NCBI GenBank assembly: GCA_022842645.1
Contig: JALHPE010000002.1
Coordinates: 149,047-213,046 of the forward strand
DNA length: 64,000 nt
Source of the DNA: Minisyncoccota bacterium
Lineage (GTDB): Bacteria > Patescibacteriota > Minisyncoccia > Phycocordibacterales > UBA2100
Reading direction: 5' to 3'
The notes beneath the pieces were generated by a model that worked only from the letters and a program-made list of their open reading frames with translations, was not told where the DNA came from and ran no database searches. This document shows positions 2,212 through 57,841 of this stretch, piece by piece; position 1 is the first letter of the stretch; each line of letters opens with the position of its first letter. The position numbers were made by a program, and so were the translations under genes.

Positions 2212-2835
2212 ATGGAAACGCACCATTTCTCAGACTCCCTTTCTTTCCTTGCAAAGTATCCGTGTTTTAAAGCCCTCATCAAAAAACACGGACATCCCGA
2301 TCTTTCCGATTACTTTCCCAAAACCGGTGGTGTATTTGGATCCATTGTACGATCCATCACCTATCAACAGATTTCCGGCAAAGCCGCTGGGGCGATTTAT
2401 GCGCGGTTCGCCAAACTCTTCCCCCGCAAAACACCAACTCCAGACAGGCTTTTGAAGCTTTCCGAAGCACAACTTCGTGCCTGTGGATTCTCTACTCAAA
2501 AAATAAAATACCTGCGCGATGCGGCGATTAAATTTTCTGACGGCACGATAAACCCCAAGCGTTTCCCAAAGATGACAAGCGAGGAAATTATCGAACATTT
2601 CGTGCAAATACACGGTGTTGGCGTTTGGACGGCACACATGGTGCTTATTTTCACCCTGCACCGCTTGGATATCCTACCAACGGGTGATCTTGCTATTCGC
2701 AAAGGGTTTCAAAAAGTGTATCGACTCAAGTCACTTCCCTCTCCTGCGGAAATGGAAAAACTTGCACGTCCCTGGCGCGCCCATGCCTCAGTCGCTTCTT
2801 GGTATTTGTGGCGGGTGGTGGATGAAAAAAAATAA
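2212..2835 (+). CDS. alkA: DNA-3-methyladenine glycosylase II (HhH-GPD family, AlkA-like)
   Basis: HhH-GPD signature HGVGVWTAHMVLIFTL...LPTGDLAIRKG; start at METHHF. Confidence 0.7.
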   Translation: METHHFSDSLSFLAKYPCFKALIKKHGHPDLSDYFPKTGGVFGSIVRSITYQQISGKAAGAIYARFAKLFPRKTPTPDRLLKLSEAQLRACGFSTQKIKYLRDAAIKFSDGTINPKRFPKMTSEEIIEHFVQIHGVGVWTAHMVLIFTLHRLDILPTGDLAIRKGFQKVYRLKSLPSPAEMEKLARPWRAHASVASWYLWRVVDEKK

Positions 2836-2857
2836 GAATGACTGTAAAGAGCGAATG

Positions 2858-3550
2858 TCAGATCTCTTTGTCTTTTAAAATGGATGATTCACTATCGCTT
2901 AATAAGCCGTCTTTCATCCAAATAACTCGATCTACATATTTTTTATCTTCTGGCTCATGGGTAATCATGAGGATGGTTTGTTCCAGTTCTTTGTTGAGTT
3001 TTTGAAACAGTTTTAACACAACTACAGAGGCTTCAGTGTCGAGATTCGCCGTCGCCTCGTCTGCAAAAAGCACCTCGGGGTCATTGATAAGCGCGCGAGC
3101 GATTGCGACACGTTGCTGCTCACCCCCTGAAAGTTCTTTCGGATAATGATCGAGACGGTGTCCGAGACCAACAAGACCGAGAAGTTTCGTGGCCTTGTCT
3201 TTATCCCACACTCCCCCATGAAGCACCGAGGCCGGAAAACCGACATTTTCCAAGGCGGTGAATTCCGCAATAAGCGCATATTCTTGAAACACATAGCCAA
3301 GTCGTTGTAAGCGAAATTGTGTTTTTTCTTCATCAGAAAGATGCAATACATCCGTGCCACCGATGCGGATAGAACCTGCCGTTGGCGTGTCAATAAGTCC
3401 GAGCTGATGAAGGAGCGTTGATTTACCGCAACCGCTTCGCCCCATCAGAGCAACAAACTCACCCTTTTTAATATCGAACGAGACGCCGCGCAGGGCAAAT
3501 GTTGGCACTGCCCCCGGATACGTTTTTTCCAAATTTTTTACTGAAATCAT
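2858..3550 (-). CDS. ABC transporter ATP-binding protein (MacB/LolD-like)
   Basis: Walker A GRSGCGKST, ABC signature LSGGEQQR, Walker B LFADE. Confidence 0.85.
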   Translation of the reverse strand: MISVKNLEKTYPGAVPTFALRGVSFDIKKGEFVALMGRSGCGKSTLLHQLGLIDTPTAGSIRIGGTDVLHLSDEEKTQFRLQRLGYVFQEYALIAEFTALENVGFPASVLHGGVWDKDKATKLLGLVGLGHRLDHYPKELSGGEQQRVAIARALINDPEVLFADEATANLDTEASVVVLKLFQKLNKELEQTILMITHEPEDKKYVDRVIWMKDGLLSDSESSILKDKEI

Positions 3551-3559
3551 ATGCGTGTC

Positions 3560-4780
3560 CTACCCCCAGATTGCCTGGAGGATTGATTCTTTGGTAACAA
3601 TACGCGACGGAACGAGGCCGCCAAGAAATCCCGCAATCATAAGAGCGAGCACGCTATACGAGATCTGGAACTGAGTAAGAACCAAGCTCGTGCCACCAAA
3701 TGGTAATTGGATTGGATGTACATTGAGATACGGCTGGACGATACCAAACACCAAAATCGAACCAACCGCGATACCGCACACCGCATAAAAGAGCGACTGG
3801 AGAATGTATGAGTACACGATGATTGAGGGCGTGATGCCGATTGCTCGCAAGATCCCTATCTGGCGTTTCTTATTTATGGCGTTCACATATACGAGCACAA
3901 ATATCGTCACTGTGGCAACAGCAATCGAAATAACACTCACGAAGATGCCGATCAGATTGAAGGCATTGAGCAGTGTCCCGATATCAGCAAGAAGTTCTAT
4001 ATAACTCTTAATCTCGAGTGTCGGGAAAAGTGATTGCAGTCTGTCGCGAAGCTCGTTGATTTCAATTTTTTCCTCATTCATTTTCAAGGAAATTGACGAT
4101 GCTGCATTGAACGTGCCGAGAATCGACTCGGCTTCTTGTGTACTCACAAACGCTTGTGAGTTTGCTGGACCAAGACCCGATTCGGATATCCCGACTACGG
4201 TGTATGTTCTTGTGCCGGATGAAAAGGTGACCAATACTTTGTCTCCAATAGTTACTCCTCCCAAATCTCGATCGCTCGGGCCGGATCCACCACCCGCAAG
4301 TCCCGAACCGAGAACAATCTCATCCTTTCTCAGGGGATTAAACATGCGCCCTTCTATGATCGTTTCTGCCGTCTTAAAAACGCCTGATTCTTCATCGATG
4401 TCTATACCGTTCACATTCGCGGAAACGTAGGTATATTTACCGTCTTTTTCTTTATCATAGGCAAACGAACCGTTCACACTGTATCTGCGCACCGTCGCCG
4501 TCACCCCCGGTATTGTTTCGATTTGTGCACGGACGATGTCCTGATTTTCGATAAAATCTTTCTTTGTTGGTTCCTCCTGTGGACGAACTTGTATATCGCC
4601 TGTTGCGGTAGTGCGTACGCCTTCAGTGATACTGCTCCCAAGGCCACCAAGAATGCCTGTAATGAATAATATGTTTAAGAAGGAGAAGGAAAGAATACAG
4701 ACAAGCAGTATGGCCGTGGATTTGTTGCCCTGGGTTATGGTTTTATAGGCTAAAAAGAAAGCCGAACGAAACGTTTTCAT
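3560..4780 (-). CDS. ABC transporter permease, FtsX/MacB family
   Basis: N-terminal TM, large periplasmic domain and C-terminal 3-TM FtsX-like region; forms an operon with the adjacent ATPase. Confidence 0.75.
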   Translation of the reverse strand: MKTFRSAFFLAYKTITQGNKSTAILLVCILSFSFLNILFITGILGGLGSSITEGVRTTATGDIQVRPQEEPTKKDFIENQDIVRAQIETIPGVTATVRRYSVNGSFAYDKEKDGKYTYVSANVNGIDIDEESGVFKTAETIIEGRMFNPLRKDEIVLGSGLAGGGSGPSDRDLGGVTIGDKVLVTFSSGTRTYTVVGISESGLGPANSQAFVSTQEAESILGTFNAASSISLKMNEEKIEINELRDRLQSLFPTLEIKSYIELLADIGTLLNAFNLIGIFVSVISIAVATVTIFVLVYVNAINKKRQIGILRAIGITPSIIVYSYILQSLFYAVCGIAVGSILVFGIVQPYLNVHPIQLPFGGTSLVLTQFQISYSVLALMIAGFLGGLVPSRIVTKESILQAIWG

Positions 4781-4783
4781 GAA

Positions 4784-6358
4784 TCATTTTTTTGCAAGAA
4801 TCACAAGCTCTCCCTCGCGGACGCCGCTCATAATCTCAACATTCCCACGCGCATCGTAAATTCCGGTTGTAATTTCTCGCTCTTCCTCGGTGCGACCAGA
4901 CAGTACGCTTACATATTTGAGACCATCGCGCGTCTGTATGGCCCCGGCAGGCACAAAGAGCACCCTTTCTTTTTGAGCGACCTGGATCCAGATGTTCGCA
5001 GTCATACCCGATCGTATGCGCTCATCTTTTTGGTCAAACACCACGGTCGCTTGATAGTAAATAGCACCACTAACATTTGTTTCAGCGGGATCAATATGCG
5101 AAACAGTTCCCTTCCAGTTAAGTTCGGGAAATGCCTCAAGGGAGATGCGCACGGATTGACCAACGCGCACGAGCGCAACATTATTTTCAGAAACGTTGAT
5201 GGTGATCTGGAACGTTGCATCAGGGATCATTGAGACGATGGTGTTATTCGCTGCAACATTTTCTCCCAGTTCAGCTGTAGTGTTTGTTATGGTTCCCTTG
5301 ACTGGCGCATAAATGGCATAGTCGTTTCGCTCCGCAATGACTTGCTCAAGCGATGCACGGGCTTGTGCAATCTGGCCTTCATACACCTGAATGTCCACCG
5401 GTCGTGGAGAGGAGGTTTTGGAGCGTAACTGATTTTGCGCAGTGACAAGTGATGATTCTGCAGATCGCAACGTCCCCTGATGAGCAGTTAAATTCGTAAG
5501 CGTTGTGTTTATCGTCGTTCGAGCGGTCGCAACATTGGTTTTGTACGTATCGATATTTGTCTGCGTCACTCCACCACCTACAACCGCGGCGTTTACTAAA
5601 AGCGAAAGGTCGTCAAGATAATTGGCAACCATATTGATATTTTGGATGGCTGTGTCTCCCTTCATCACTATCGAATCTAAAGTGGAGAGCGCAGCTATGT
5701 CGGTTTGCCAGGCAATAAGCATAGATTCAAGCGCAACTCGTTCATCCTCGACGTCGAGTTGAAGCTGAGAGTCCGGAACAAGAAAAAGCAGTTGGGGGTA
5801 ACTCTTGCGTGGGTTCAAGAACATAACATCCGTCTTTGTGCGCACTGCATCGTCGGCTTTTGAAAACGCATCGCGAATAGTTGCGGCGAGATTTTGTTCA
5901 GCGTTTTTGCGCGCGGCTTCTGCGGCGATCACGCTTGATTGCGTAATGGCGATATCTTCTTGCGTTGCCCCCACGATAAGTTGTTCCAGTTTTGCTTTCT
6001 GAATATCAAGCGCCGCGTCCATGCTTGCTATCTGAGATTCAATCTGACGCGCATCAAGCTGGGCTAATAGCTGCCCCTGCTCCACCGAGTCCCCGGCCGA
6101 GACGGGGATTGATTTTATTTTTCCTGCCGCCTTAAAAGCGAGACTAATATTTGACGGACTTTCAACCGCACCATTTGCAGAAACCTCTTGCGTCAGCGTG
6201 CCTTTCTCTACTGGTGCTGTGGTATACAAATCGGCGTAGAGTATTGGCTGGAGTATCAAAAAAACAATTACAAAAAGTGGTACGAAAGCGATGAATACGG
6301 TTGTCCATGTATGCGATTTAAGGTACGCAACCACACCGGTAAGTAGATTTGTGTTCAT
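4784..6358 (-). CDS. efflux periplasmic adaptor subunit (HlyD/MacA family)
   Basis: N-terminal TM (start MNTNLLTGVVAYL...), long coiled-coil region and a beta-barrel C-terminus; lies upstream of the permease and ATPase. Confidence 0.7.
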   Translation of the reverse strand: MNTNLLTGVVAYLKSHTWTTVFIAFVPLFVIVFLILQPILYADLYTTAPVEKGTLTQEVSANGAVESPSNISLAFKAAGKIKSIPVSAGDSVEQGQLLAQLDARQIESQIASMDAALDIQKAKLEQLIVGATQEDIAITQSSVIAAEAARKNAEQNLAATIRDAFSKADDAVRTKTDVMFLNPRKSYPQLLFLVPDSQLQLDVEDERVALESMLIAWQTDIAALSTLDSIVMKGDTAIQNINMVANYLDDLSLLVNAAVVGGGVTQTNIDTYKTNVATARTTINTTLTNLTAHQGTLRSAESSLVTAQNQLRSKTSSPRPVDIQVYEGQIAQARASLEQVIAERNDYAIYAPVKGTITNTTAELGENVAANNTIVSMIPDATFQITINVSENNVALVRVGQSVRISLEAFPELNWKGTVSHIDPAETNVSGAIYYQATVVFDQKDERIRSGMTANIWIQVAQKERVLFVPAGAIQTRDGLKYVSVLSGRTEEEREITTGIYDARGNVEIMSGVREGELVILAKK

Positions 6359-6486
6359 ATGCAGGCATAGTGTAATATGAATTATCTTTACAGTAAAGAT
6401 AATATGTGGACAACGCAAACCGGGGTAGACATCTCTACGGATAAAGATACTTTGAAGTCCTGCTAAAGTTGTGGAAAGATACACAT

Positions 6487-6948
6487 ATGTCAGATATATC
6501 AAACAAACGACGTGAGGTGATGGAAGGCATGAGATCGTCTAATGAGACCGCGCTTAAGTTTTTGCGCATTTCGGCGGAACGTTCGGGCCTCCACCCTACC
6601 GATATGCGATCATTAGAGTTTCTTGCAAATAAAGAGGTTGCAACGGCGGGTGAACTATCGGCGTTTCTTGGCCTTACTTCGGGCGCAACAACGGCGCTTA
6701 TAAATCGTCTTGAAAAGCTCGAGATGATTGTTCGGAACGCAGATACCCACGACAAACGCATTATTCATATCCGCACGAATCCTCACAAGGCACTCACTCC
6801 CATGCTTCTCATGGGGCGGTTTATTAAGAAATTAGAGAAGTTTTTAGAAAAATATTCGGAGTCCGAGCTTGATGTAATCGCACGATGGAATGCCGACGTC
6901 GATGCCGCGTTTAAGAAAAGCACTGAAGATCTACTCAAATCGAAATAA
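6487..6948 (+). CDS. MarR-family transcriptional regulator
   Basis: Winged-HTH MarR-like sequence (ATAGELSAFLGLTSGATTALINRLEKLEMIVR...DKRI); divergent from the efflux operon. Confidence 0.65.
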   Translation: MSDISNKRREVMEGMRSSNETALKFLRISAERSGLHPTDMRSLEFLANKEVATAGELSAFLGLTSGATTALINRLEKLEMIVRNADTHDKRIIHIRTNPHKALTPMLLMGRFIKKLEKFLEKYSESELDVIARWNADVDAAFKKSTEDLLKSK

Positions 6949-7019
6949 CTAACCATGCTGCACTCATATTGCCATCAAGGTGTTTCCCCTATTATCGCCC
7001 ACTCAATGGGAAGGCACTT

Positions 7020-7650
7020 CGCTTAGAGTCAAAAAATTGACCTGCGGAATTTTTTGAACAAATCATATACTTTGCGCGAACCTTTTTCGAGGGGCGAAGC
7101 CCCTGACTTCGCACGCGCCGCGTGCGTGGTGGCTTGAGACCGCCAAGTACGCTCCGATCGCGCTGACAAGCGCCTCGGCGTGCGCGAGGACGCGCGCTGC
7201 AACCCCAAACATTTCCTTTCAATTTTTTGCGGCTCCCCCCTGACCCCCCGCCGAAAAGCGAAAAACAGAGGAAAGGAAATGTTTGGGTTGCTTCGCCGTT
7301 TTGAAAACTCCACAAGGGGCAACAAAGGCAAAGCCAATGAAGCCCCTTGCTCCGTAATCAAAACGGCGATCGAGACGCTTCAATGCGGTCTGCGTAAGGC
7401 GCAGTCATATTTGTTTATGTGCCTTGCCCCACCCGCCCAGTGCGCGGCGCGAAACCCGCCGCTACGCGGCGGCTCCCTGTGGATAACTCGCCTTGCGGCG
7501 ACATATACGTTTCGTATAATAATCGTGCGAGGCGGTTCTTTGAAAATCAATTCAGTGTTAGCGGCTATTCAATCGAAGATTGAGATGAACGCGCAAGCGC
7601 GCATCTGACCCCTCCCAAACGCGGAGGACACATTGCCCCGGCCATGTACA
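7020..7650. ncRNA. GC-rich, hairpin-dense non-coding region; candidate structured RNA (retron msr/msd-like or other large ncRNA); strand unknown
   Basis: No credible ORF; the six-frame ORFs here are Arg/Pro-rich artefacts of GC-rich DNA. Many perfect stems: GGGGCGAAGCCCC (7092-7108), CGCACGCGCCGCGTGCG (7115-7131), 21-bp inverted repeat GCAACCCCAAACATTTCCTTTC/GAAAGGAAATGTTTGGGTTGC (7199-7220 with 7276-7296), nested CGCCGTTTTGA/TCAAAACGGCG (7298-7308 with 7367-7377), CCGCCGC-TAC-GCGGCGG. It lies directly upstream of the HTH-RT gene pair. Confidence 0.4.
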
Positions 7651-7811
7651 TGCATTCGCATCACTACGATGCAGGCATGAACGTAGTAGGCGCACACATT
7701 GTCGTTGAACGACGCAGTGATTTAGTCATGTTAGTCATCCAGGCGAAGCATGTCAGCAGTTATATAAACTGCAATATAAATTGCTAGAAGTTCAAGAGGC
7801 AGGGACTATCC

Positions 7812-7878
7812 AAAATCGCGGTTACCAAACTCCCGTTTTGGGTATTACCGGATGCCCCCGATCGAAATTGGTAACCGC
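7812..7878. repeat. 11-13 bp inverted repeat ATCGCGGTTACCAA / TTGGTAACCGCGA enclosing a 41-nt loop
   Basis: Perfect inverted repeat read from the sequence, about 215 bp upstream of the HTH gene. Confidence 0.5.
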
Positions 7879-8092
7879 GAGAGTAGGATATGTCCCACAA
7901 CTTTATTAGCAGTCCGTCTCGTTAGCTAATGGATGTGGCCTATGAAAGACATTCGTATCTCACCTGAATTGTGGCATCCGTATCACGAGCCGGTTATCGC
8001 CTTACATGAGGTTTCTCAAGCTCTTGTGGCTTATCCTCCGGATAATCCGCATCTTGTACGACCTTTGGCGGTAATCGGCTCGTAGTCTTCCC

Positions 8093-8413
8093 ATGTATTC
8101 ATTCCCAGAACTAATCAAAAAAATACGAGAAGCGGCCGGCATGACGCAGGCCGATTTTGCGCGGGCGCTCGGCGTATCCGCCGTGCTAATTGCAATGGTG
8201 GAAACTGGGCAAAAAGAGGTTTCTAAAAATTTGCTTCGCAAAATTGCCGAGCAGTTAGATGTGCATCCGTCCTCCATAACACCTTTCCTGTTCGCGGATG
8301 AGAAAAAAGATACCCTGTCGCCAGTCGAGAAAAAGTTTATTCAGTGGGGCGAGCAACTACAGGAGCATTTGATAAAAGACCGTGCAAAACTTCTCAAAAA
8401 CCATGCGGCGTAG
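8093..8413 (+). CDS. XRE-family helix-turn-helix protein (Cro/C1-type)
   Basis: HTH_3-like GMTQADFARALGVSAVLIAMVETGQKEVSKNLLRKIAEQLDV; its stop overlaps the RT start (ccATGcggcgTAG). Confidence 0.7.
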   Translation: MYSFPELIKKIREAAGMTQADFARALGVSAVLIAMVETGQKEVSKNLLRKIAEQLDVHPSSITPFLFADEKKDTLSPVEKKFIQWGEQLQEHLIKDRAKLLKNHAA

Positions 8414-9401
8414 GCGATACCCAAAAATCCATATACAGAGCAAGAACGAGCTGGCAAAGCATATAGACAGCGCACGTCTCCCATATGAGAAAGCCCTGTC
8501 GCTCATAAACGATGTGCAAACTAACTTTGATACTTACTGGAAAGACCACCCTACGCAGTCCAAACCAGATAAACGTAAATGGGTACGAAATGCCGCAGGC
8601 ACACCTCTCGCACGGCTTCTTGATTTGATAAACGCAAAAGTTCTCACCCCCGCCGATCTGCTATTGCCAAGTTTCATCTTTGGCGGGATTGGCGGTTTGA
8701 ACCATAAAGCTGCCGTATTACATCTGCTCGGCAATAAGCGAAAACGGATTTTACTCAAACTAGATATAACGAGGTTTTTTGAGCAGATACGCCACGAGCG
8801 GGTCTATCACTTTTTCCGCGATAAGTGCAAATGCAGTGATAAGGGCGCAAAGATACTTGCTGACCTTTGCTGTGTCCGCCACGGCCCGAAGGAAAAACCG
8901 GACGCATATAAAACGATTGCTCGCGGCTTCGCCACTTCGTCGCGCCTTGCTGTCTGGTGCAATGTAGACACCTTCCTGCGCCTTGAGCGGCTTGTGCAAA
9001 AAGAATTGCGAGGCAAAGACCCCCGCATCGCCGTTTATGTAGACGACATCGGCATTACCGCAAGTAGGGCGTCGAAGGAGGATATGTTGCGGCTATATGT
9101 AAAAATAAAAACACTTTTGGAACAGGACAAGAATCAACCACTACCTCTAAACGACGACAAGACAAAAGTGATCTTCCATAGTGGCGAAACTTATGACAAA
9201 GACGGAAATTATCTTGGTAAATGGGCGTTTGAACATTTGGGCTTGCAGATGAATCGCAACTCCGTAACTATCGGTTCAAAAACGAGGGGAAAACTGGATA
9301 GAGCAACAAGCGAATTAGAAAAAAGTGATAAGAAAGACCAAACAACCAAACGACGCAGAGGAGCGTTCTTGAATTACAAACGGTATATCGAGGCAGAATA
9401 A
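8403..9401 (+). CDS. reverse transcriptase, retron-type-like
   Basis: RT motifs LLKLDITRFF (motif A Asp), RGFATSSRLA (retron QGxxxSPxLA-like), YVDDIG (YxDD), SVTIG (retron VTG-like). About 333 aa, the size of retron RTs. Overlaps the HTH gene by 11 nt. Confidence 0.75.
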   Translation: MRRRRYPKIHIQSKNELAKHIDSARLPYEKALSLINDVQTNFDTYWKDHPTQSKPDKRKWVRNAAGTPLARLLDLINAKVLTPADLLLPSFIFGGIGGLNHKAAVLHLLGNKRKRILLKLDITRFFEQIRHERVYHFFRDKCKCSDKGAKILADLCCVRHGPKEKPDAYKTIARGFATSSRLAVWCNVDTFLRLERLVQKELRGKDPRIAVYVDDIGITASRASKEDMLRLYVKIKTLLEQDKNQPLPLNDDKTKVIFHSGETYDKDGNYLGKWAFEHLGLQMNRNSVTIGSKTRGKLDRATSELEKSDKKDQTTKRRRGAFLNYKRYIEAE

Positions 9402-9409
9402 TTGCGCGA

Positions 9410-9649
9410 TTATACCGTTATTCTCTCGTAAATCATTTTTGAACCCTCCGACTGTCTAGGGAAATTGCCTTTTTCATCTGTGAACGACAGTTCTTTAGCT
9501 GGATGATTTGCTTTTTTCGGGAAAAGCGACAAAATATTTTTGATATCTGTGAATGGTGGTACTTCCAACTTTTCTCCCGCAACTTCTGAGGTATGAGCAC
9601 CTGATGAGAGCGACCCTGTGTTTGGATTTTCCTTCACAAGATTTCCCAT
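9410..9649 (-). CDS. hypothetical small protein (79 aa), convergent with the RT
   Basis: ORF only; weak RBS. Confidence 0.25.
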   Translation of the reverse strand: MGNLVKENPNTGSLSSGAHTSEVAGEKLEVPPFTDIKNILSLFPKKANHPAKELSFTDEKGNFPRQSEGSKMIYERITV

Positions 9650-9841
9650 CGCCTCGGCAGCTATTTGCCGATAAGTACAAACTGCAATTAGGTGTTCGGC
9701 AGTAGTTCATTCGTGATATTTCTCAAGGTCTTCGATTAACTCTTCCGTGAGATTCCACAAAGTATCCCATTTTTGGGAACCTTCTGAATAATCGATTCGC
9801 GGCGCGGCCGCCTCGGCCTTTCGGCCGGAGAAGTATTACTT

Positions 9842-10018
9842 AGTGACTCTAGCGGGAATCGGCCAAGAGCTCGTTTTGATTCCGTCGAATCAAAACTCCT
9901 CTCGGCCCTGCTCGCGCGACCCGTTCTACTAAACGGGTGCCCGCGCTCCCTTTCGATTCCCGCTAGAGGTCTACAAAAATATAGTTGGCCGACACGATGT
10001 GTCGTCCTCGTTATTTTT
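9842..10018. repeat. tRNA-Glu 3'-end partial duplications: direct 19-bp copy GTGACTCTAGCGGGAATCG (9842-9860), inverted copy TTCGATTCCCGCTAGAG (9946-9962), and an intervening hairpin-rich ~158-bp segment
   Basis: Exact 19-mer shared with 10019-10037. The segment between contains the perfect hairpins GTTTTGATTC-CGTC-GAATCAAAAC and ACCCGTT-CTACTAA-AACGGGT. Confidence 0.6.
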
Positions 10019-10019
10019 G

Positions 10020-10091
10020 TGACTCTAGCGGGAATCGAACCCGCCTTCCATCCTTGAGAAGGATGTGTCCTAGCCGATAGACGATAGAGCC
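10020..10091 (-). tRNA. tRNA-Glu (anticodon CTC)
   Basis: Cloverleaf folds by hand: acceptor GGCTCTA/TAGAGTC, D-stem GTCT/GGAC, anticodon stem CATCC/GGATG with loop TTCTCAA, T-arm GCGGG-TTCGATT-CCCGC. Confidence 0.8.
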
Positions 10092-10193
10092 GTAAGGTAA
10101 CGCCACTCAAAAGTAGCAAACATTGACCATGTAGACAAGGTATTGCGTGCGCCTGAGACGGGTGCATACTGACTGCGGGAGAAAGGAGGAAAC

Positions 10194-20386: not shown

Positions 20387-20402
20387 AATTGTTGTTTTTA
20401 AT

Positions 20403-20485
20403 GTCACGGATATTTCTTTGGTAAGAAATTCCGCAACCCCGCCTCAGCATCGACATGCTTCCGGCCTTGCGATGGGGCCCCGTCC
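20403..20485. promoter_or_regulatory. about 85-bp module, copy 1, with palindromic operator-like site GGATATTTCTTTGGTAAGAAATTCC (20408-20432) 25 nt upstream of the paralog B start
   Basis: Imperfect palindrome; the module is about 75% identical to 20585-20665. Confidence 0.5.
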
Positions 20486-20584
20486 CCATCTCACCCCCGA
20501 ATTTTTAATGTGGCGCTGAATCTTGTTCAGCTTGCCGAGCACCTCGTGAGATGCTCGACCTAGCTATCCAAGACCTTGCGGTGC

Positions 20585-20665
20585 GTCACGGATATTTCTT
20601 TGCTAAGAAATTCCGCGACCCCGCCTCGGAGCCAAGCTCCTCCGGCCTTGCGACGAGCCCCCGGC
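20585..20665. promoter_or_regulatory. about 85-bp module, copy 2, with palindrome GGATATTTCTTTGCTAAGAAATTCC (20590-20614)
   Basis: Direct duplicate of 20403-20485, 182 bp away. Confidence 0.5.
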
Positions 20666-23177: not shown

Positions 23178-23246
23178 ACCGGGTGATTGTAGCAAAATGG
23201 TGGACTACTCGCCTTCCGTAAAATCTTCTGGTAAAGTACTCGGAAC

Positions 23247-23319
23247 GGGCCCTTAGCTCATCTGGTAGAGCACCTCATTTGCAATGAGGGGGTGGCAGGT
23301 TCGAGTCCTGTAGGGTCCA
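23247..23319 (+). tRNA. tRNA-Ala (anticodon TGC)
   Basis: GGGCCCTTAGCTCATCTGGTAGAGCACCTCATTTGCAATGAGG...GGTTCGAGTCCTGTAGGGTCCA; G3:U70 identity pair; followed by a terminator hairpin. Confidence 0.85.
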
Positions 23320-23330
23320 CAGCGCACTAA

Positions 23331-23355
23331 AATCCTCCCCTGCGGGAGGATTTTT
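23331..23355 (+). terminator. rho-independent terminator after tRNA-Ala
   Basis: AATCCTCCC-CTGC-GGGAGGATT followed by TTT. Confidence 0.6.
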
Positions 23356-23572
23356 GGCGCTGTGGAAAGCGGAGCGTTATGAGGCCAGTAGGCCGAATCG
23401 CGAGCTAGGGTCGTGGAATTTTTTGAGCGACGGCGAGAAAAATATCCCTGACCACATACTGGAGGGCGCAAACGATGTCGCATCAGCATATGCGACCGTG
23501 CGCCGGGGTCGCGAAAAAATTCGTCCGGCGGGACGAATTTTATTTGTGACCACAACCTGCAATCTTTTTCCC

Positions 23573-24541
23573 TCATCTCCGCGCGAGTCCGATGGCATGC
23601 GTAAGATACTCCCCTCTCGAGGCTCCTACACTCTCCAGCATTGCAGGAAATGCCGCCCCATCGTAAAGCCCCGGAAGAGCATTCACCTCCAGAAGATAGG
23701 GACCACGTTTCGTTACAATAAAATCCGAACGCGAAGAATGTGAAAGCCTCAGTGCTCGGTGCGCCGCACGTGCCATTTCGGCAAGCTCCGCCTTTTCATC
23801 ATGTCCGAAATCACTTGGCACAATAAATCGTGCCTCGCCAGAGTGATGATGATCAAAGTGGAGAAACGGCGACTCTTCCGGATACATCACCCGCGCAGGC
23901 GGCAACACATACAGCTCTTCTCCACGAAAATCGTCTATCACACCTACCGTTGCCTCCTCCCCCAAAAGGTATTCTTGCACCACAGCACTTCCAAATGCTT
24001 CAAGCATGTCGGCTATTCTCTCTCCAAGTTCAACAAATGTTGCCACCAAGACGACACCATGCGAAGCGCCTTCGCGCGCCGGCTTCACGATGTAAGGGGG
24101 GCCAAACTCTTGAAACACAAAACGGCTCATCTCTGCCGTGTTCAAACCTGATGAGAGTGTGAAGCCAACCGACAGAGGCATGCGAATCCCAGCTTTTTTG
24201 AGCTCAATACCTGCTTGAATTTTGTTGAGTGAAAGGCCGGAAGCGAGCGCATTTGAACCTGTGAACGGCACACCAAGAGTCTGTAAAATCCGCTGCACCG
24301 TGCCGTCTTCCCCCGGGCCGCCGTGTAAACCATTAATCACAACATCCACCTGCGCCAGCGCACGAGCAGGCTCAACTGGAATACCGCGTGCGTGCCAATA
24401 TCCTTTTCTATCAATGAAAATATCGCGGAGGTCGTACTCGCTTTCGGGAAGTGCATTCAAAATGCTCGTACCCGTTTTGAGCGAAAGGTCGTACTCACTT
24501 GACGGGCCACCACGAAGAACACCAACAATCGTTCGTGCCAT
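23573..24541 (-). CDS. ddl: D-alanine--D-alanine ligase
   Basis: Start MARTIVGVLRGGPSSEYDLSLKTG; ATP-grasp motifs; C-terminal LLEVNALPGL. Confidence 0.8.
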   Translation of the reverse strand: MARTIVGVLRGGPSSEYDLSLKTGTSILNALPESEYDLRDIFIDRKGYWHARGIPVEPARALAQVDVVINGLHGGPGEDGTVQRILQTLGVPFTGSNALASGLSLNKIQAGIELKKAGIRMPLSVGFTLSSGLNTAEMSRFVFQEFGPPYIVKPAREGASHGVVLVATFVELGERIADMLEAFGSAVVQEYLLGEEATVGVIDDFRGEELYVLPPARVMYPEESPFLHFDHHHSGEARFIVPSDFGHDEKAELAEMARAAHRALRLSHSSRSDFIVTKRGPYLLEVNALPGLYDGAAFPAMLESVGASRGEYLTHAIGLARR

Positions 24542-57297: not shown

Positions 57298-57546
57298 TCA
57301 AAGCACCTGGCTTCTGACAAGTGTTATTTTCTGAGACCGTGATAGTTTTTTAATTGCCGCTTCGCGCTTCGATGCACTGCTTCGGTTTCGTTTTCGTTCG
57401 AGATACATGATTGTTCCCGCACGTTTTGCACGCGTATATTTTGCTCCTTTCCCGCGTTTATGTTCATCGAGTCGGCGCACTACATCGGTCGTTATACCGC
57501 AGTAGAGCGAGCCATCGTTGCATTTGAGAAGATAGACGAAATACAT
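57298..57546 (-). CDS. GIY-YIG nuclease family protein (UPF0213-like)
   Basis: MYFVYLLKCNDGSLYCGITTDVVRRLDEH. Confidence 0.7.
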   Translation of the reverse strand: MYFVYLLKCNDGSLYCGITTDVVRRLDEHKRGKGAKYTRAKRAGTIMYLERKRNRSSASKREAAIKKLSRSQKITLVRSQVL

Positions 57547-57774
57547 ACTGCGCCTGTATCAATAGATTACTACTTTTGCTGAACCTGTATATGAACTACT
57601 GGGGAAGAATGATGCGGAGCATCTTTCTTCCGGTTTTTCCAGTCACGCATATTCGCCTGGTGACGAATTGCGCGACCCCATCTCGGCGCCGTCGCGCCTG
57701 CGATCTTGCGAAGTTGCTCAGCAACTTCTCACCTTCCTCCACGGGAAAACAAGATGTTTTCCCGACCCCTTTCT

Positions 57775-57841
57775 CGTTCGAATCCAGGTCGGAGTGTGCG
57801 CAGGCACACTCCTTCCGGCAATAAAACGCCATGCTCTTTTA
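57775..57841. repeat. inverted partial copy of the tRNA-Gln T-arm/acceptor (CGTTCGAATCCAGGTCGGA) plus hairpins downstream of tRNA-Gln
   Basis: GGAGTGTG-CGCAGGC-CACACTCC hairpin; CCGGCAATAAAA...TTTTATTGCCGG perfect 12-bp stem overlapping the tRNA 3' end. Confidence 0.5.

What the first reader, a model, noticed from the sequence alone, without database searches (positions are those of the whole stretch)
9842..10091. tRNA-Glu followed by a 19-bp direct repeat of its own 3' end 175 bp away, with an inverted copy in between
GTGACTCTAGCGGGAATCG occurs at 10019-10037 (the tRNA 3' end) and again at 9842-9860. The 158-bp segment between them is hairpin-rich and also holds an inverted copy of the tRNA T-arm/acceptor. 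Direct repeats of a tRNA 3' end are the classic scar of site-specific integration (attL/attR). This places the RT/HTH/ncRNA locus on the integration side of tRNA-Glu and suggests an island boundary or a miniature element that targets tRNA ends.
Basis: partly seen in the sequence, partly recalled or inferred. Interest (0 to 1): 0.55.

Follow-up and report, generated by a model that had tools for sequence, protein, structure and literature searches.

The report
tRNA-trailing structured RNA, not integration scar
The repeated and inverted copies of the tRNA-Glu 3' end are the two strands of the closing stem of a small conserved structured RNA element that follows tRNA genes in this group of tiny bacteria; the layout resembles E. 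coli RtT RNA, and the repeat is not the scar left by the neighbouring retron's insertion.

Summary
GTGACTCTAGCGGGAATCG occurs at 9843-9861 and 10019-10037, and a 17/17 inverted copy lies at 9952-9968.

The att-scar reading does not hold. The direct and inverted copies pair to close a 129-nt Y-shaped element (9843-9971, minus strand), 47 nt downstream of tRNA-Glu(CUC).

The same layout recurs in at least 7 other metagenomic Patescibacteria loci that have no retron: tRNA, hairpin, antisense copy of its own 3' end, two-hairpin core, direct copy of its own 3' end. Each genome's arms match its own tRNA. Similar elements follow a tRNA-Ser there and tRNA-Gln in this window.

A covariance model of the ~95-nt core finds 6 copies in the window, 4 of them just downstream of the 3 tRNAs. 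Covariation is strong (23 of 26 pairs have changes on both sides) and one G·U pair is conserved, so this is an RNA on the tRNA strand. No Rfam family matches.

The closest known thing is E. coli RtT/RttR. The architecture is the same, including a 178-nt period against 176 here, but no homology is detectable.

The type VI retron and an ABC-transporter module (2823-10015) are missing at this site in a close relative, so the region is variable. The 19-mer does not bound that segment.

The parts
10019..10091 (-). tRNA-Glu(CUC) gene with no encoded CCA. Its T-loop-to-3'-end segment (10019-10039) is copy C1.
   Evidence: ARAGORN; Rfam RF00005, 55 bits.
9972..10018 (-). H0: 47-nt spacer holding a hairpin flanked by an A-tract and a U-tract. 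It looks like a bidirectional terminator. Its outer stem extends into the tRNA 3' end and into C2.
   Evidence: Sequence; folds. Equivalent hairpins follow the tRNA in relatives. The simple terminator scan did not call it.
9952..9971 (-). C2: the antisense copy of the tRNA 3' end (GACCTCTAGCGGGAATCGAA on the minus strand). It is the 5' strand of closing helix P1 and can alternatively pair with the tRNA 3' end plus trailer.
   Evidence: I3, I8. Duplex predictions: C1:C2 -35.7 kcal/mol with 23 Watson-Crick pairs; C2:C3 -31.5 kcal/mol with 19 Watson-Crick pairs.
9858..9955 (-). Conserved two-hairpin core (model R1). H1 with its enclosing short helix lies at about 9908-9951, and H2 with a GACG tetraloop at about 9861-9907.
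   Evidence: cmsearch 54.4 bits, E = 7e-9; covariation; single-sequence folds.
9843..9861 (-). C3: the direct copy of the tRNA 3' end (CGATTCCCGCTAGAGTCAC on the minus strand). It is the 3' strand of P1 and ends with the same discriminator A plus C as the tRNA.
23362..23554 (+). Two tandem copies of the same core (23362-23456 and 23459-23554) after tRNA-Ala(UGC) and its terminator. The arms are short (GTGG/CCAC) and each unit ends in ...GACCACA, like the tRNA end.
   Evidence: cmsearch 93.7 and 79.9 bits; sequence.
57638..57826 (-). Element after tRNA-Gln(UUG). The antisense copy of the tRNA end is split in two (57814-57826 and 57776-57790) by a hairpin with loop CCUGCG (57791-57813). A core copy lies at 57638-57710.
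   Evidence: (35.7 bits).
20399..20652 (-). Two further core copies (20399-20471 and 20582-20652) in an intergenic region between two minus-strand genes, with no tRNA nearby.
   Evidence: cmsearch 40.8 and 39.7 bits; sequence.
7450..9401 (+). Context only, not part of the element: a type VI retron. It comprises a conserved upstream non-coding region (about 7450-8090), an HTH gene (8093-8413) and an RT gene (8382/8403-9401).
   Evidence: PADLOC RT_VI 8.6e-24 and HTH_VI 1.7e-15; Pfam. nhmmer shows the upstream region is conserved across 20 or more retron loci, while 9402-10018 is not.

Best explanation
The direct repeat (C3) and the inverted copy (C2) of the tRNA-Glu 3' end are the two strands of the closing helix of a ~129-nt three-way-junction RNA. 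It is encoded on the tRNA strand, right after the tRNA and a terminator-like hairpin.

It belongs to a family of small structured elements in this Patescibacteria (Paceibacteria/Kaiserbacteria-like) lineage. Most copies sit 40-250 nt downstream of tRNA genes, sometimes in tandem. In the long-armed members the closing helix reproduces the acceptor/T-arm duplex of the tRNA immediately upstream and changes with it from genome to genome. These points are shown.

The following is inferred by analogy with E. coli RtT/RttR, which has the same layout. The element is made from tRNA read-through transcripts, or from a weak promoter inside the spacer. The stable closing helix and the tRNA-identical 3' end would let the tRNA end-processing machinery (RNase Z or exonucleases, possibly the CCA-adding enzyme and RNase P) release a defined stable RNA. 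C2 can pair either with the tRNA 3' end plus trailer or with C3, so the unit may also act as a switch or buffer for maturation of read-through tRNA precursors, or as a mimic of the tRNA's top half. Its cellular role is unknown.

The adjacent type VI retron is an unrelated insertion into the variable DNA beyond this element.
For: Architecture recurs without the retron:
- An antisense copy 49-81 nt and a direct copy 145-255 nt downstream of tRNA-Glu(CUC) occur in L066, L067, L072, L081, L088, L090 and L136, and after tRNA-Ser(CGA) in L121.
- Among 100 tRNAs, 10 have a downstream antisense score of 12 or more, against 1 in the upstream control.
- RT and HTH are absent from all of these loci.

Arms follow their own tRNA:
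- For every locus, both C2' and C3 match their own tRNA at least as well as any other locus's tRNA, with one exception (the C2' of L088). tRNA acceptor stems differ between loci.

Pairing is at the RNA level:
- G·U wobbles keep both C1:C2 and C2:C3 paired in L088, L136 and L072.
- On 30 core sequences, 91% of cells are paired, 23 of 26 pairs have changes on both sides, 0 of 500 shuffles reach the observed score, and slid controls pair at 35-45%. One G·U pair is conserved in 21 of 29 sequences.

Family and position:
- Model R1 gives 30 hits in 906 kb.
- Of 29 hits tabulated, 18 lie 42-252 nt downstream of a same-strand tRNA.
- In the window, 4 of 6 copies follow the 3 tRNAs.

Known analogue:
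- In E. coli the 19 nt of the tRNA-Tyr 3' end recur every 178 nt.
- The Rfam RtT consensus closes with GGGGAAGGAU/AUCCUUCCCC, which are the antisense and direct copies of the tRNA 3' end, followed by the tail CCACCACCA.
- RtT is described as released from tRNA operon transcripts during processing (PMC4986893, citing Bosl & Kersten 1991).
Against: - There are no expression data, so transcription, ends and processing are all inferred.
- A terminator-like hairpin lies between the tRNA and the element. Transcription therefore needs read-through or a separate promoter, and the only promoter-like match (10005-9978, 9 of 12 positions) is no better than chance.
- tRNA end-processing enzymes do not need a 17-19 nt sequence match, so the exact identity of the arms to the tRNA may instead reflect DNA-level copying (gene conversion or template switching).
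- Some core copies are not next to tRNAs (20.4-20.65 kb; L047, L096, L108).
- One natural variant (L075 versus L072) has lost most of the element, so it is dispensable at least there.
- Loci L059-L138 were chosen through murF, which lies near tRNA-Glu, so the family's overall distribution is sampled with bias.
Confidence: 0.7

Rival explanations
1. Classic att scar. An integrase-borne island, or a decayed remnant of one, integrated into the 3' end of tRNA-Glu. C1 and C3 would be attL and attR, and the retron island entered at this site.
For: - The direct repeat starts in the T-loop and runs to the 3' end, as many tRNA att cores do (general knowledge, Williams 2002).
- The region beyond the tRNA 3' end is variable: 2823-10015 is missing in L040.
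- In related retron loci, every tRNA within 2.5 kb has its 3' end facing the retron.
Against: - The repeats bound only 157 bp, and the retron lies outside them.
- No integrase is among the neighbouring genes.
- No significant third copy lies at an island edge.
- The bounded segment is a conserved structured core found in at least 7 retron-free genomes, with arms fitted to each genome's own tRNA.
- An inverted copy is not produced by simple integration.
- The other retron loci show no tRNA-end direct repeats of 11 nt or more flanking the retron.
Confidence: 0.06
2. A miniature mobile or recombination element acting at the DNA level. When single-stranded, C2 and C3 fold into a duplex that mimics the tRNA-gene target, as in the folded attP of CTX-type phages or integron attC sites. 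A recombinase supplied in trans would insert the unit next to tRNA ends, and tandem units would arise by repeated insertion.
For: - The order direct copy, short segment, inverted copy, ~92-nt loop, direct copy matches an integrated CTX-type element (own knowledge, Val et al. 2005).
- Units occur in tandem (window 23362-23554; L067; L124) and at non-tRNA sites.
- Structural covariation alone cannot exclude a folded single-stranded DNA.
- Family copies are dispersed, with 6 in 64 kb.
Against: - No recombinase is linked to the elements.
- No real copies were found among IMG/VR candidates.
- Core divergence roughly tracks host divergence, and the position after tRNA-Glu is kept across genomes whose MurF is only 50-59% identical, which looks like vertical inheritance.
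- The conserved G·U pair and the tandem G·U wobbles in the arms fit RNA better than DNA.
- The one presence/absence polymorphism seen (L072 versus L075) is an imprecise deletion, not an excision between repeats.
Confidence: 0.12
3. A by-product of DNA-level events with no function for the arms. A dispersed REP-like hairpin element happens to lie after tRNA terminators. Template switching at quasi-palindromes, and unequal exchange with the selectively frozen tRNA 3' end, then copied tRNA sequence into both flanks.
For: - The tRNA end, H0 and C2 form one long imperfect palindrome that runs into the trailer in the window, L066, L081 and for tRNA-Gln. That is the substrate for templated correction.
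- Arm length varies from 3 to 19 bp between copies.
- The E. coli tyrT repeats have classically been ascribed to duplication (own knowledge, Egan & Landy 1978).
Against: - Wobble pairs in the arms (L088, L136) are not what templated copying yields.
- The boundary at the T-loop is the same in every long-armed copy.
- The same hairpin, with a conserved CCUGCG loop and fully compensated stems, is inserted at the acceptor/T junction of the antisense arm in three different contexts (window tRNA-Gln, L088, L072). This points to a selected RNA architecture.
Confidence: 0.12

Closest known systems
RtT / RttR RNA of the E. coli tyrT-tyrV operon (Rfam RF00391)
   Same: - It lies directly downstream of a tRNA gene on the same strand.
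- Its unit length of 178 nt compares with 176 nt here.
- Each unit ends with a 19-nt exact copy of the tRNA 3' end.
- An antisense copy about 60 nt after the tRNA pairs with that direct copy to form the closing helix of a multi-hairpin RNA.
- Units can be tandem.
- It is reported to be released from the tRNA primary transcript (PMC4986893).
   Different: - No sequence or covariance-model similarity: RF00391 gives no hit in the window even at E <= 10, and R1 scores at most 5.8 bits on the E. coli locus.
- The junction topology differs. RtT has P1 stacked on a second helix that encloses two hairpins; here a three-way junction follows P1 directly.
- Here P1 extends through the whole acceptor strand (15-17 bp), whereas in RtT the acceptor strand plus CCA stays single-stranded.
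- The host is Patescibacteria and the tRNA has no encoded CCA.
- No Tpr-like ORF is present.
attL/attR direct repeats of tRNA-integrated genomic islands
   Same: A direct repeat of the T-loop-to-3'-end segment of a tRNA gene, located on its 3' side and next to variable DNA that carries a defence system.
   Different: The repeat encloses 157 bp of conserved structured sequence rather than the island. There is no integrase. An inverted copy is present. The arrangement is conserved in retron-free relatives.
tRNA-like minihelix RNAs processed by tRNA enzymes (mascRNA, viral tRNA-like structures, the tmRNA tRNA-like domain)
   Same: The 5' and 3' ends pair into a helix that reproduces the acceptor and T stems of a tRNA, and the rest of the molecule is inserted where the loop would be. 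The 3' end carries the discriminator base.
   Different: There is no T-loop/D-loop elbow and no cloverleaf. Neither ARAGORN nor the Rfam tRNA, tmRNA or mascRNA models score the element; they score only the real tRNA.
Folded single-stranded attP of CTX-type phages and integron attC sites
   Same: Two inverted copies of the target sequence, about 90 nt apart, can fold into a duplex mimic of the target. The order of copies resembles the integrated state.
   Different: No recombinase, no cargo, and the evidence favours RNA (conserved G·U pair, fixed orientation relative to the tRNA).

Membership tests
RtT RNA (Rfam RF00391) | Scores at or above the family gathering threshold (45 bits) with the Rfam covariance model | tested here: not met
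   No RF00391 match in the whole window at gathering score, nor in 9700-10120 or 23200-23600 at E <= 10. Positive control: four E. coli copies score 133-137 bits.
RtT RNA (Rfam RF00391) | Lies downstream of a tRNA gene on the same strand, with a unit of about 178 nt that ends in an exact copy of the tRNA 3' end | tested here: met
   Window: 176-nt spacing and a 19/19 copy. E. coli: 178-nt spacing and a 19/19 copy, three times.
RtT RNA (Rfam RF00391) | Closing helix formed by an antisense copy and the direct copy of the tRNA 3' end | tested here: met
   Window P1 is 15 bp perfect, or 17 bp with one bulge. The RtT consensus pairs GGGGAAGGAU with AUCCUUCCCC.
RtT RNA (Rfam RF00391) | Released from the tRNA primary transcript by processing | not testable with these tools
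   No transcript data are available. The property is known for E. coli only from the literature (PMC4986893, citing Bosl & Kersten 1991).
tRNA-targeted integrative island (att scar) | The direct repeats of the tRNA 3' end bound the inserted DNA, which is absent from empty sites | tested here: not met
   The repeats bound 157 bp that is conserved in relatives. The DNA missing in L040 (2823-10015) extends far beyond C3, and its far edge has no significant tRNA-end copy.
tRNA-targeted integrative island (att scar) | An integrase or recombinase gene at or near the tRNA-proximal end | tested here: not met
   Genes called within 6 kb either side of the RT are HhH-GPD, ABC_tran, FtsX, an HlyD-like gene, MarR, HTH, RVT_1, two ORFs with no Pfam hit, MurF, PBP, RsmH and MraZ.
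Retron type VI non-coding RNA (msr/msd) | Conserved next to the RT/HTH genes in homologous retron loci | tested here: not met
   The ~600 nt upstream of the HTH gene is conserved in 20 or more loci. Window 9402-10018 has no counterpart in any of them, and model R1 gives no hit in the retron loci searched (L006-L039 except L038, L006/L011/L038).
tRNA / tmRNA / tRNA-like genes | Cloverleaf, or a tRNA-like domain with an intact T-arm | tested here: not met
   ARAGORN finds only the three real tRNAs. The Rfam tRNA, mascRNA and permuted-tmRNA models align only to 10019-10091.
Dispersed repeat elements (REP/MITE-like) | Many copies per genome in intergenic DNA | tested here: met
   6 core copies in 64 kb, and 30 hits in 906 kb of related loci.
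Dispersed repeat elements (REP/MITE-like) | Terminal inverted repeats of the element's own sequence plus target-site duplication, with presence/absence polymorphism at precise ends | tested here: inconclusive
   The arms are copies of the neighbouring tRNA rather than a family-wide terminal repeat. The single polymorphism seen (L072 versus L075) is an imprecise 122-nt deletion.

The most novel reading that the evidence does not exclude
These elements, together with E. coli RtT, form a widespread and unrecognised class of tRNA-cognate companion RNAs. Each carries a duplex copy of the acceptor/T-arm of the tRNA it follows, plus an antisense strand able to capture that tRNA's unprocessed 3' end. 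Each would act as a tRNA-specific switch, decoy or buffer for tRNA maturation, or for factors (enzymes, toxins, phage proteins) that read the tRNA's top half. This would explain why the arms track each genome's tRNA sequence.
Probability: 0.2. Interest if true: 0.8.

Novelty: new variant of a known kind. Interest (0 to 1): 0.6.

Why it matters
A direct repeat of a tRNA 3' end is routinely read as an island boundary. Here it is part of a conserved RNA structure, which is a caution for att-site and island callers.

The element defines an RNA family that Rfam 15 does not detect, in Patescibacteria, whose tRNA biology is already unusual. It has independently arrived at, or anciently shares, the architecture of the poorly understood E. 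coli RtT RNA. The closing helix co-varies with the neighbouring tRNA across genomes. That gives a concrete, testable handle on what RtT-type RNAs do: tRNA precursor processing, top-half mimicry, or read-through control.

Tried and rejected
- **Y element as the retron's ncRNA.** Rejected: it is not conserved in 34 related retron loci.
- **Exact 19-mer scan of JGI metagenomes.** No hits, so no same-species empty or filled sites were found.
- **15-mer scan of IMG/VR.** The 10 hits were left unexamined, because a 15-mer from a T-arm and acceptor stem is expected in unrelated tRNAs.
- **Core pattern GGGGTCG...TATCCGTGAC in IMG/VR.** All 35 hits are chance; none scores with R1.
- **Third tRNA-end copy at 7019-7036** (CGCTTAGAGTCAAAAAAT). 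Its score is no better than background hits elsewhere in the window.
- **Exact look-up of the 339-aa RT ORF.** Failed, because the called gene starts at the later ATG; P0001 worked.
- **Hammerhead or other small ribozymes, Y RNA, T-box.** No Rfam match, and the junction sequences do not fit the hammerhead core.
- **RtT copies beside the E. coli asn tRNAs**, to see whether RtT arms also change with tRNA identity. None are there.
- **Literature searches** for a described Patescibacteria tRNA-trailing motif. Nothing found.
- **Bosl & Kersten 1991.** Not held in the library.
- **ORF79 (9410-9649, minus strand).** It has no homologue in any fetched locus and no Pfam hit, so I treated it as not part of either system.

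Full report
**1. Observation**

tRNA-Glu(CUC) lies at 10019-10091 on the minus strand (ARAGORN; Rfam tRNA, 55 bits).
- The 19-mer GTGACTCTAGCGGGAATCG occurs at 9843-9861 and 10019-10037 and nowhere else, even allowing 3 mismatches.
- Shuffles expect 0.01 matches.
The spacing is 176 and the gap between copies is 157 nt.
- An inverted copy, TTCGATTCCCGCTAGAG (9952-9968), is 17/17 complementary to the tRNA end and 15/15 to the distal copy.
- The region folds far better than shuffles, with z of -9 to -12.
- The sequence is identical in four independent assemblies.

**2. Anatomy**

Read on the tRNA (minus) strand, the order is:
- the tRNA, whose last 21 nt are copy C1;
- a 47-nt spacer, H0, holding a hairpin flanked by A- and U-tracts;
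- C2, GACCTCTAGCGGGAATCGAA, which is antisense to T-loop, T-stem 3' strand and acceptor 3' strand;
- two hairpins;
- C3, CGATTCCCGCTAGAGTCAC, which is identical to the tRNA end including the discriminator A and the next C.

C2 and C3 pair (15 bp perfect, 17 bp with one bulge) and close a 129-nt Y-shaped structure at 9843-9971. C2 is also complementary to C1 and on into the tRNA trailer, so it has two alternative partners (-35.7 and -31.5 kcal/mol).

**3. Context**

Upstream on the plus strand lies a type VI retron.
- The evidence is PADLOC RT_VI 8.6e-24 and HTH_VI 1.7e-15, and Pfam RVT_1 and HTH_3.
- Its RT has hundreds of relatives, mostly in Saccharibacteria and other CPR bacteria.
- In 34 related loci, the ~600 nt upstream of the HTH gene is conserved. 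That region is the likely retron ncRNA.
- Nothing downstream of the RT (9402-10018) is conserved in those loci.

The Y element is therefore not part of the retron.

The host genes (murF, ftsI, rsmH, mraZ) place the organism among Paceibacteria/Kaiserbacteria-like Patescibacteria.

A relative whose MurF is 86% identical (L040) has the HhH-GPD gene 36 nt from tRNA-Glu.
- Window 2823-10015 (ABC transporter, FtsX, HlyD-like, MarR, retron, Y element) is absent there, and the tRNA is inverted.
- Three other relatives (L042, L043, L047) keep the window's tRNA orientation but have different DNA beyond the tRNA.

The 3' side of tRNA-Glu is therefore a variable region. However:
- no integrase is nearby;
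- no significant further copy of the tRNA end marks an edge.

**4. The decisive comparison**

I fetched 80 murF-linked loci from metagenomes and scanned every tRNA for copies of its own 3' end within 300 nt.

The same triplet appears after tRNA-Glu(CUC) in L066, L067, L072, L081, L088, L090 and L136, after tRNA-Ser(CGA) in L121, and, as the antisense part only, after tRNA-Gln in this window.
- The antisense copy lies 49-81 nt downstream and the direct copy 145-255 nt downstream.
- Among 100 tRNAs, 10 have a downstream antisense score of 12 or more. The upstream control has 1.

None of these loci encodes the RT or the HTH protein. In L081 the unit sits directly between the murF stop codon and the tRNA, with no cargo at all.

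tRNA acceptor stems differ among these genomes (TAGAGTC, TAGGGTC, TGGGGTC, TCGGGGTC, TGGAGTC and others). In each genome, with one exception (the C2 of L088), both C2 and C3 match that genome's own tRNA at least as well as any other's.

In L088, L136 and L072 the arms keep pairing through G·U wobbles. That fits pairing in RNA made from the tRNA strand. It does not fit simple DNA copying.

In L067, L088 and tRNA-Gln the antisense arm is split at the acceptor/T-stem junction by an inserted hairpin. In L088, L072 and tRNA-Gln that hairpin has the conserved loop CCUGCG and fully compensated stems.

**5. The interior is a conserved RNA family**

The interiors align to a ~95-nt core with this consensus:

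GAA.GG.GGAGC - H1 - GCGAG..GGGGUCG - H2, often with loop GAGCGACGGCGAG - CCGUGACC

- Every member folds the same way on its own.
- A covariance model, R1, finds 30 hits in 906 kb of these loci plus the window. It finds none in the retron loci and no real ones among IMG/VR candidates.
- Of 29 hits tabulated, 18 lie 42-252 nt downstream of a same-strand tRNA (Glu-CUC, Glu-UUC, Ala, Gln).
- The window, which was not selected for this, holds 6 copies. Four follow its three tRNAs (9858-9955; 23362-23456 and 23459-23554 in tandem; 57638-57710). Two lie at 20399-20652 with no tRNA nearby.
- Covariation is strong: 91% of cells paired, 23 of 26 pairs with changes on both sides, 189 compensatory cells against 59 in shuffles (0 of 500 shuffles reach the observed score), and slid controls at 35-45% paired.
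- The pair at the base of H2 is G·U in 21 of 29 sequences.

That alignment was fitted to the model, which inflates these numbers somewhat. The independent MAFFT/RNAalifold analysis already gave 14 of 18 pairs with compensatory changes.

No Rfam 15 family matches any copy, even at E <= 10.

**6. Closest known**

I recalled the 178-bp repeats of E. coli tyrT and checked them directly. In K-12:
- the last 19 nt of tRNA-Tyr recur three times at exactly 178-nt spacing downstream of tyrV;
- this region is annotated as the sRNA RttR;
- it is matched four times by Rfam RtT (RF00391) at 133-137 bits;
- the RtT consensus structure closes with GGGGAAGGAU paired to AUCCUUCCCC, followed by the tail CCACCACCA. 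These are an antisense copy and the direct copy of the tRNA 3' end.

That is the architecture found here.

RtT is described as an RNA released from the tyrT and other tRNA operon transcripts during tRNA processing, with effects on the stringent response (PMC4986893, citing Bosl & Kersten 1991).

Homology is not detectable either way: RF00391 does not hit the window, and R1 scores at most 5.8 bits on the E. coli locus. The junction topology also differs. The element works like RtT in layout, but it is not a member of RF00391.

**7. Mechanism**

Shown:
- a conserved structured RNA-type element on the tRNA strand;
- a closing helix built from a sense copy and an antisense copy of the upstream tRNA's 3' end;
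- arms that follow the tRNA across genomes;
- independence from the retron.

Inferred:
- The RNA is produced by read-through of H0, or from a weak promoter-like site inside H0 (10005-9978). That match is at chance level.
- It is trimmed by tRNA end-processing enzymes, because its 3' end copies the tRNA's.
- Because C2 can pair with either C1 or C3, the unit could protect, delay or report on maturation of read-through precursors, or mimic the tRNA's acceptor/T-arm duplex.

I put about 0.7 on "conserved RtT-like structured RNA element, not an att scar". I put only about 0.3-0.35 on the specific processing or switch role.

Rivals:
- a decayed att scar, about 0.06;
- a miniature recombination element using a folded single-stranded site, about 0.12;
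- arms that are a non-functional product of palindrome-templated copying around a REP-like element, about 0.12.

**8.

The central claim is wrong: the 19-mer pair is not the integration scar of the RT/HTH locus.

**9. Novelty and interest**

This is a new variant of a known but obscure kind, the RtT-type tRNA-trailing RNA, in a phylum where it has not been described, with a new core family absent from Rfam. Interest is moderate to high for RNA biologists (0.6) and low as an island boundary.

Noticed in passing
window 7450-9401: A type VI retron (HTH_VI plus RT_VI by PADLOC) with a ~600-nt upstream non-coding region that is conserved across 20 or more CPR loci. The RT family is abundant in Saccharibacteria and other Patescibacteria (461 homologues at E <= 1e-5).
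   Followed up: partly
loci L010-L036: In related retron loci, every tRNA gene within 2.5 kb of the retron (10 loci with 6 different tRNA identities) has its 3' end facing the retron. No tRNA-end direct repeats of 11 nt or more flank those retrons. This may reflect tRNA-proximal island insertion or mere gene-orientation bias.
   Followed up: partly
window 2823-10015 versus L040 8682-8723: A 7.2-kb segment (ABC_tran, FtsX, HlyD-like, MarR, retron, Y element) is absent in a relative whose MurF is 86% identical. In that relative tRNA-Glu abuts the HhH-GPD gene and is inverted relative to its flanks. Across the family, tRNA-Glu occurs in either orientation relative to murF.
   Followed up: partly
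window 57791-57813; L088; L072: A small hairpin with the conserved 6-nt loop CCUGCG and fully compensated stems (GGAGTGTG/CACACTCC, GGACAATG/CATTGTCC, GCACAGTG/CACTGTGC). It is inserted in the antisense arm at the acceptor/T-stem junction in three different tRNA contexts.
   Followed up: partly
L121, L136, L090: A second interior module, ACUGA-NNC-UGUAA-GNN-UCGA (a small hairpin with loop UGUAA), precedes the direct tRNA-end copy in elements whose interior does not match R1, or matches it only partly. The tRNA-matched arms are therefore more general than the R1 core.
   Followed up: no
L072 5966-6127 versus L075 5535-5574: Two metagenomic contigs with identical tRNA-Glu differ by a 122-nt deletion. 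It removes H0, the antisense arm and most of the core, but keeps the direct tRNA-end copy 22 nt after the tRNA. This is a natural variant lacking the element.
   Followed up: partly
L047 10251-10345 (minus strand): A high-scoring core copy (86 bits) lies 42 nt upstream of tRNA-Glu on the opposite strand. It would need its own promoter, or it reflects an inversion of the tRNA relative to the element.
   Followed up: no
window 57298-57546 (minus strand): An 82-aa ORF lies just downstream of the tRNA-Gln element. By eye its N-terminus (MYFVYLLKCNDGSLYCGIT...) resembles small GIY-YIG proteins. I did not scan it against any protein family library.
   Followed up: no
window 7204-7369; L006 both ends: Long inverted repeats (17-nt perfect arms at 7204-7220 / 7271-7287, and 37-nt arms at 7293-7369) lie upstream of the conserved retron ncRNA. 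Window 7244-7302 matches the far end of the 4.45-kb contig L006 in reverse orientation. L006 carries the closest RT (75% identity).
   Followed up: no
L174 (E. coli K-12 1287066-1287236): Each 178-nt unit of the E. coli RtT repeats contains an antisense copy (GGGGAAGGAT) of the tRNA-Tyr 3' end as well as the well-known 19-nt direct copy. This is the same three-copy logic as in the window.
   Followed up: yes
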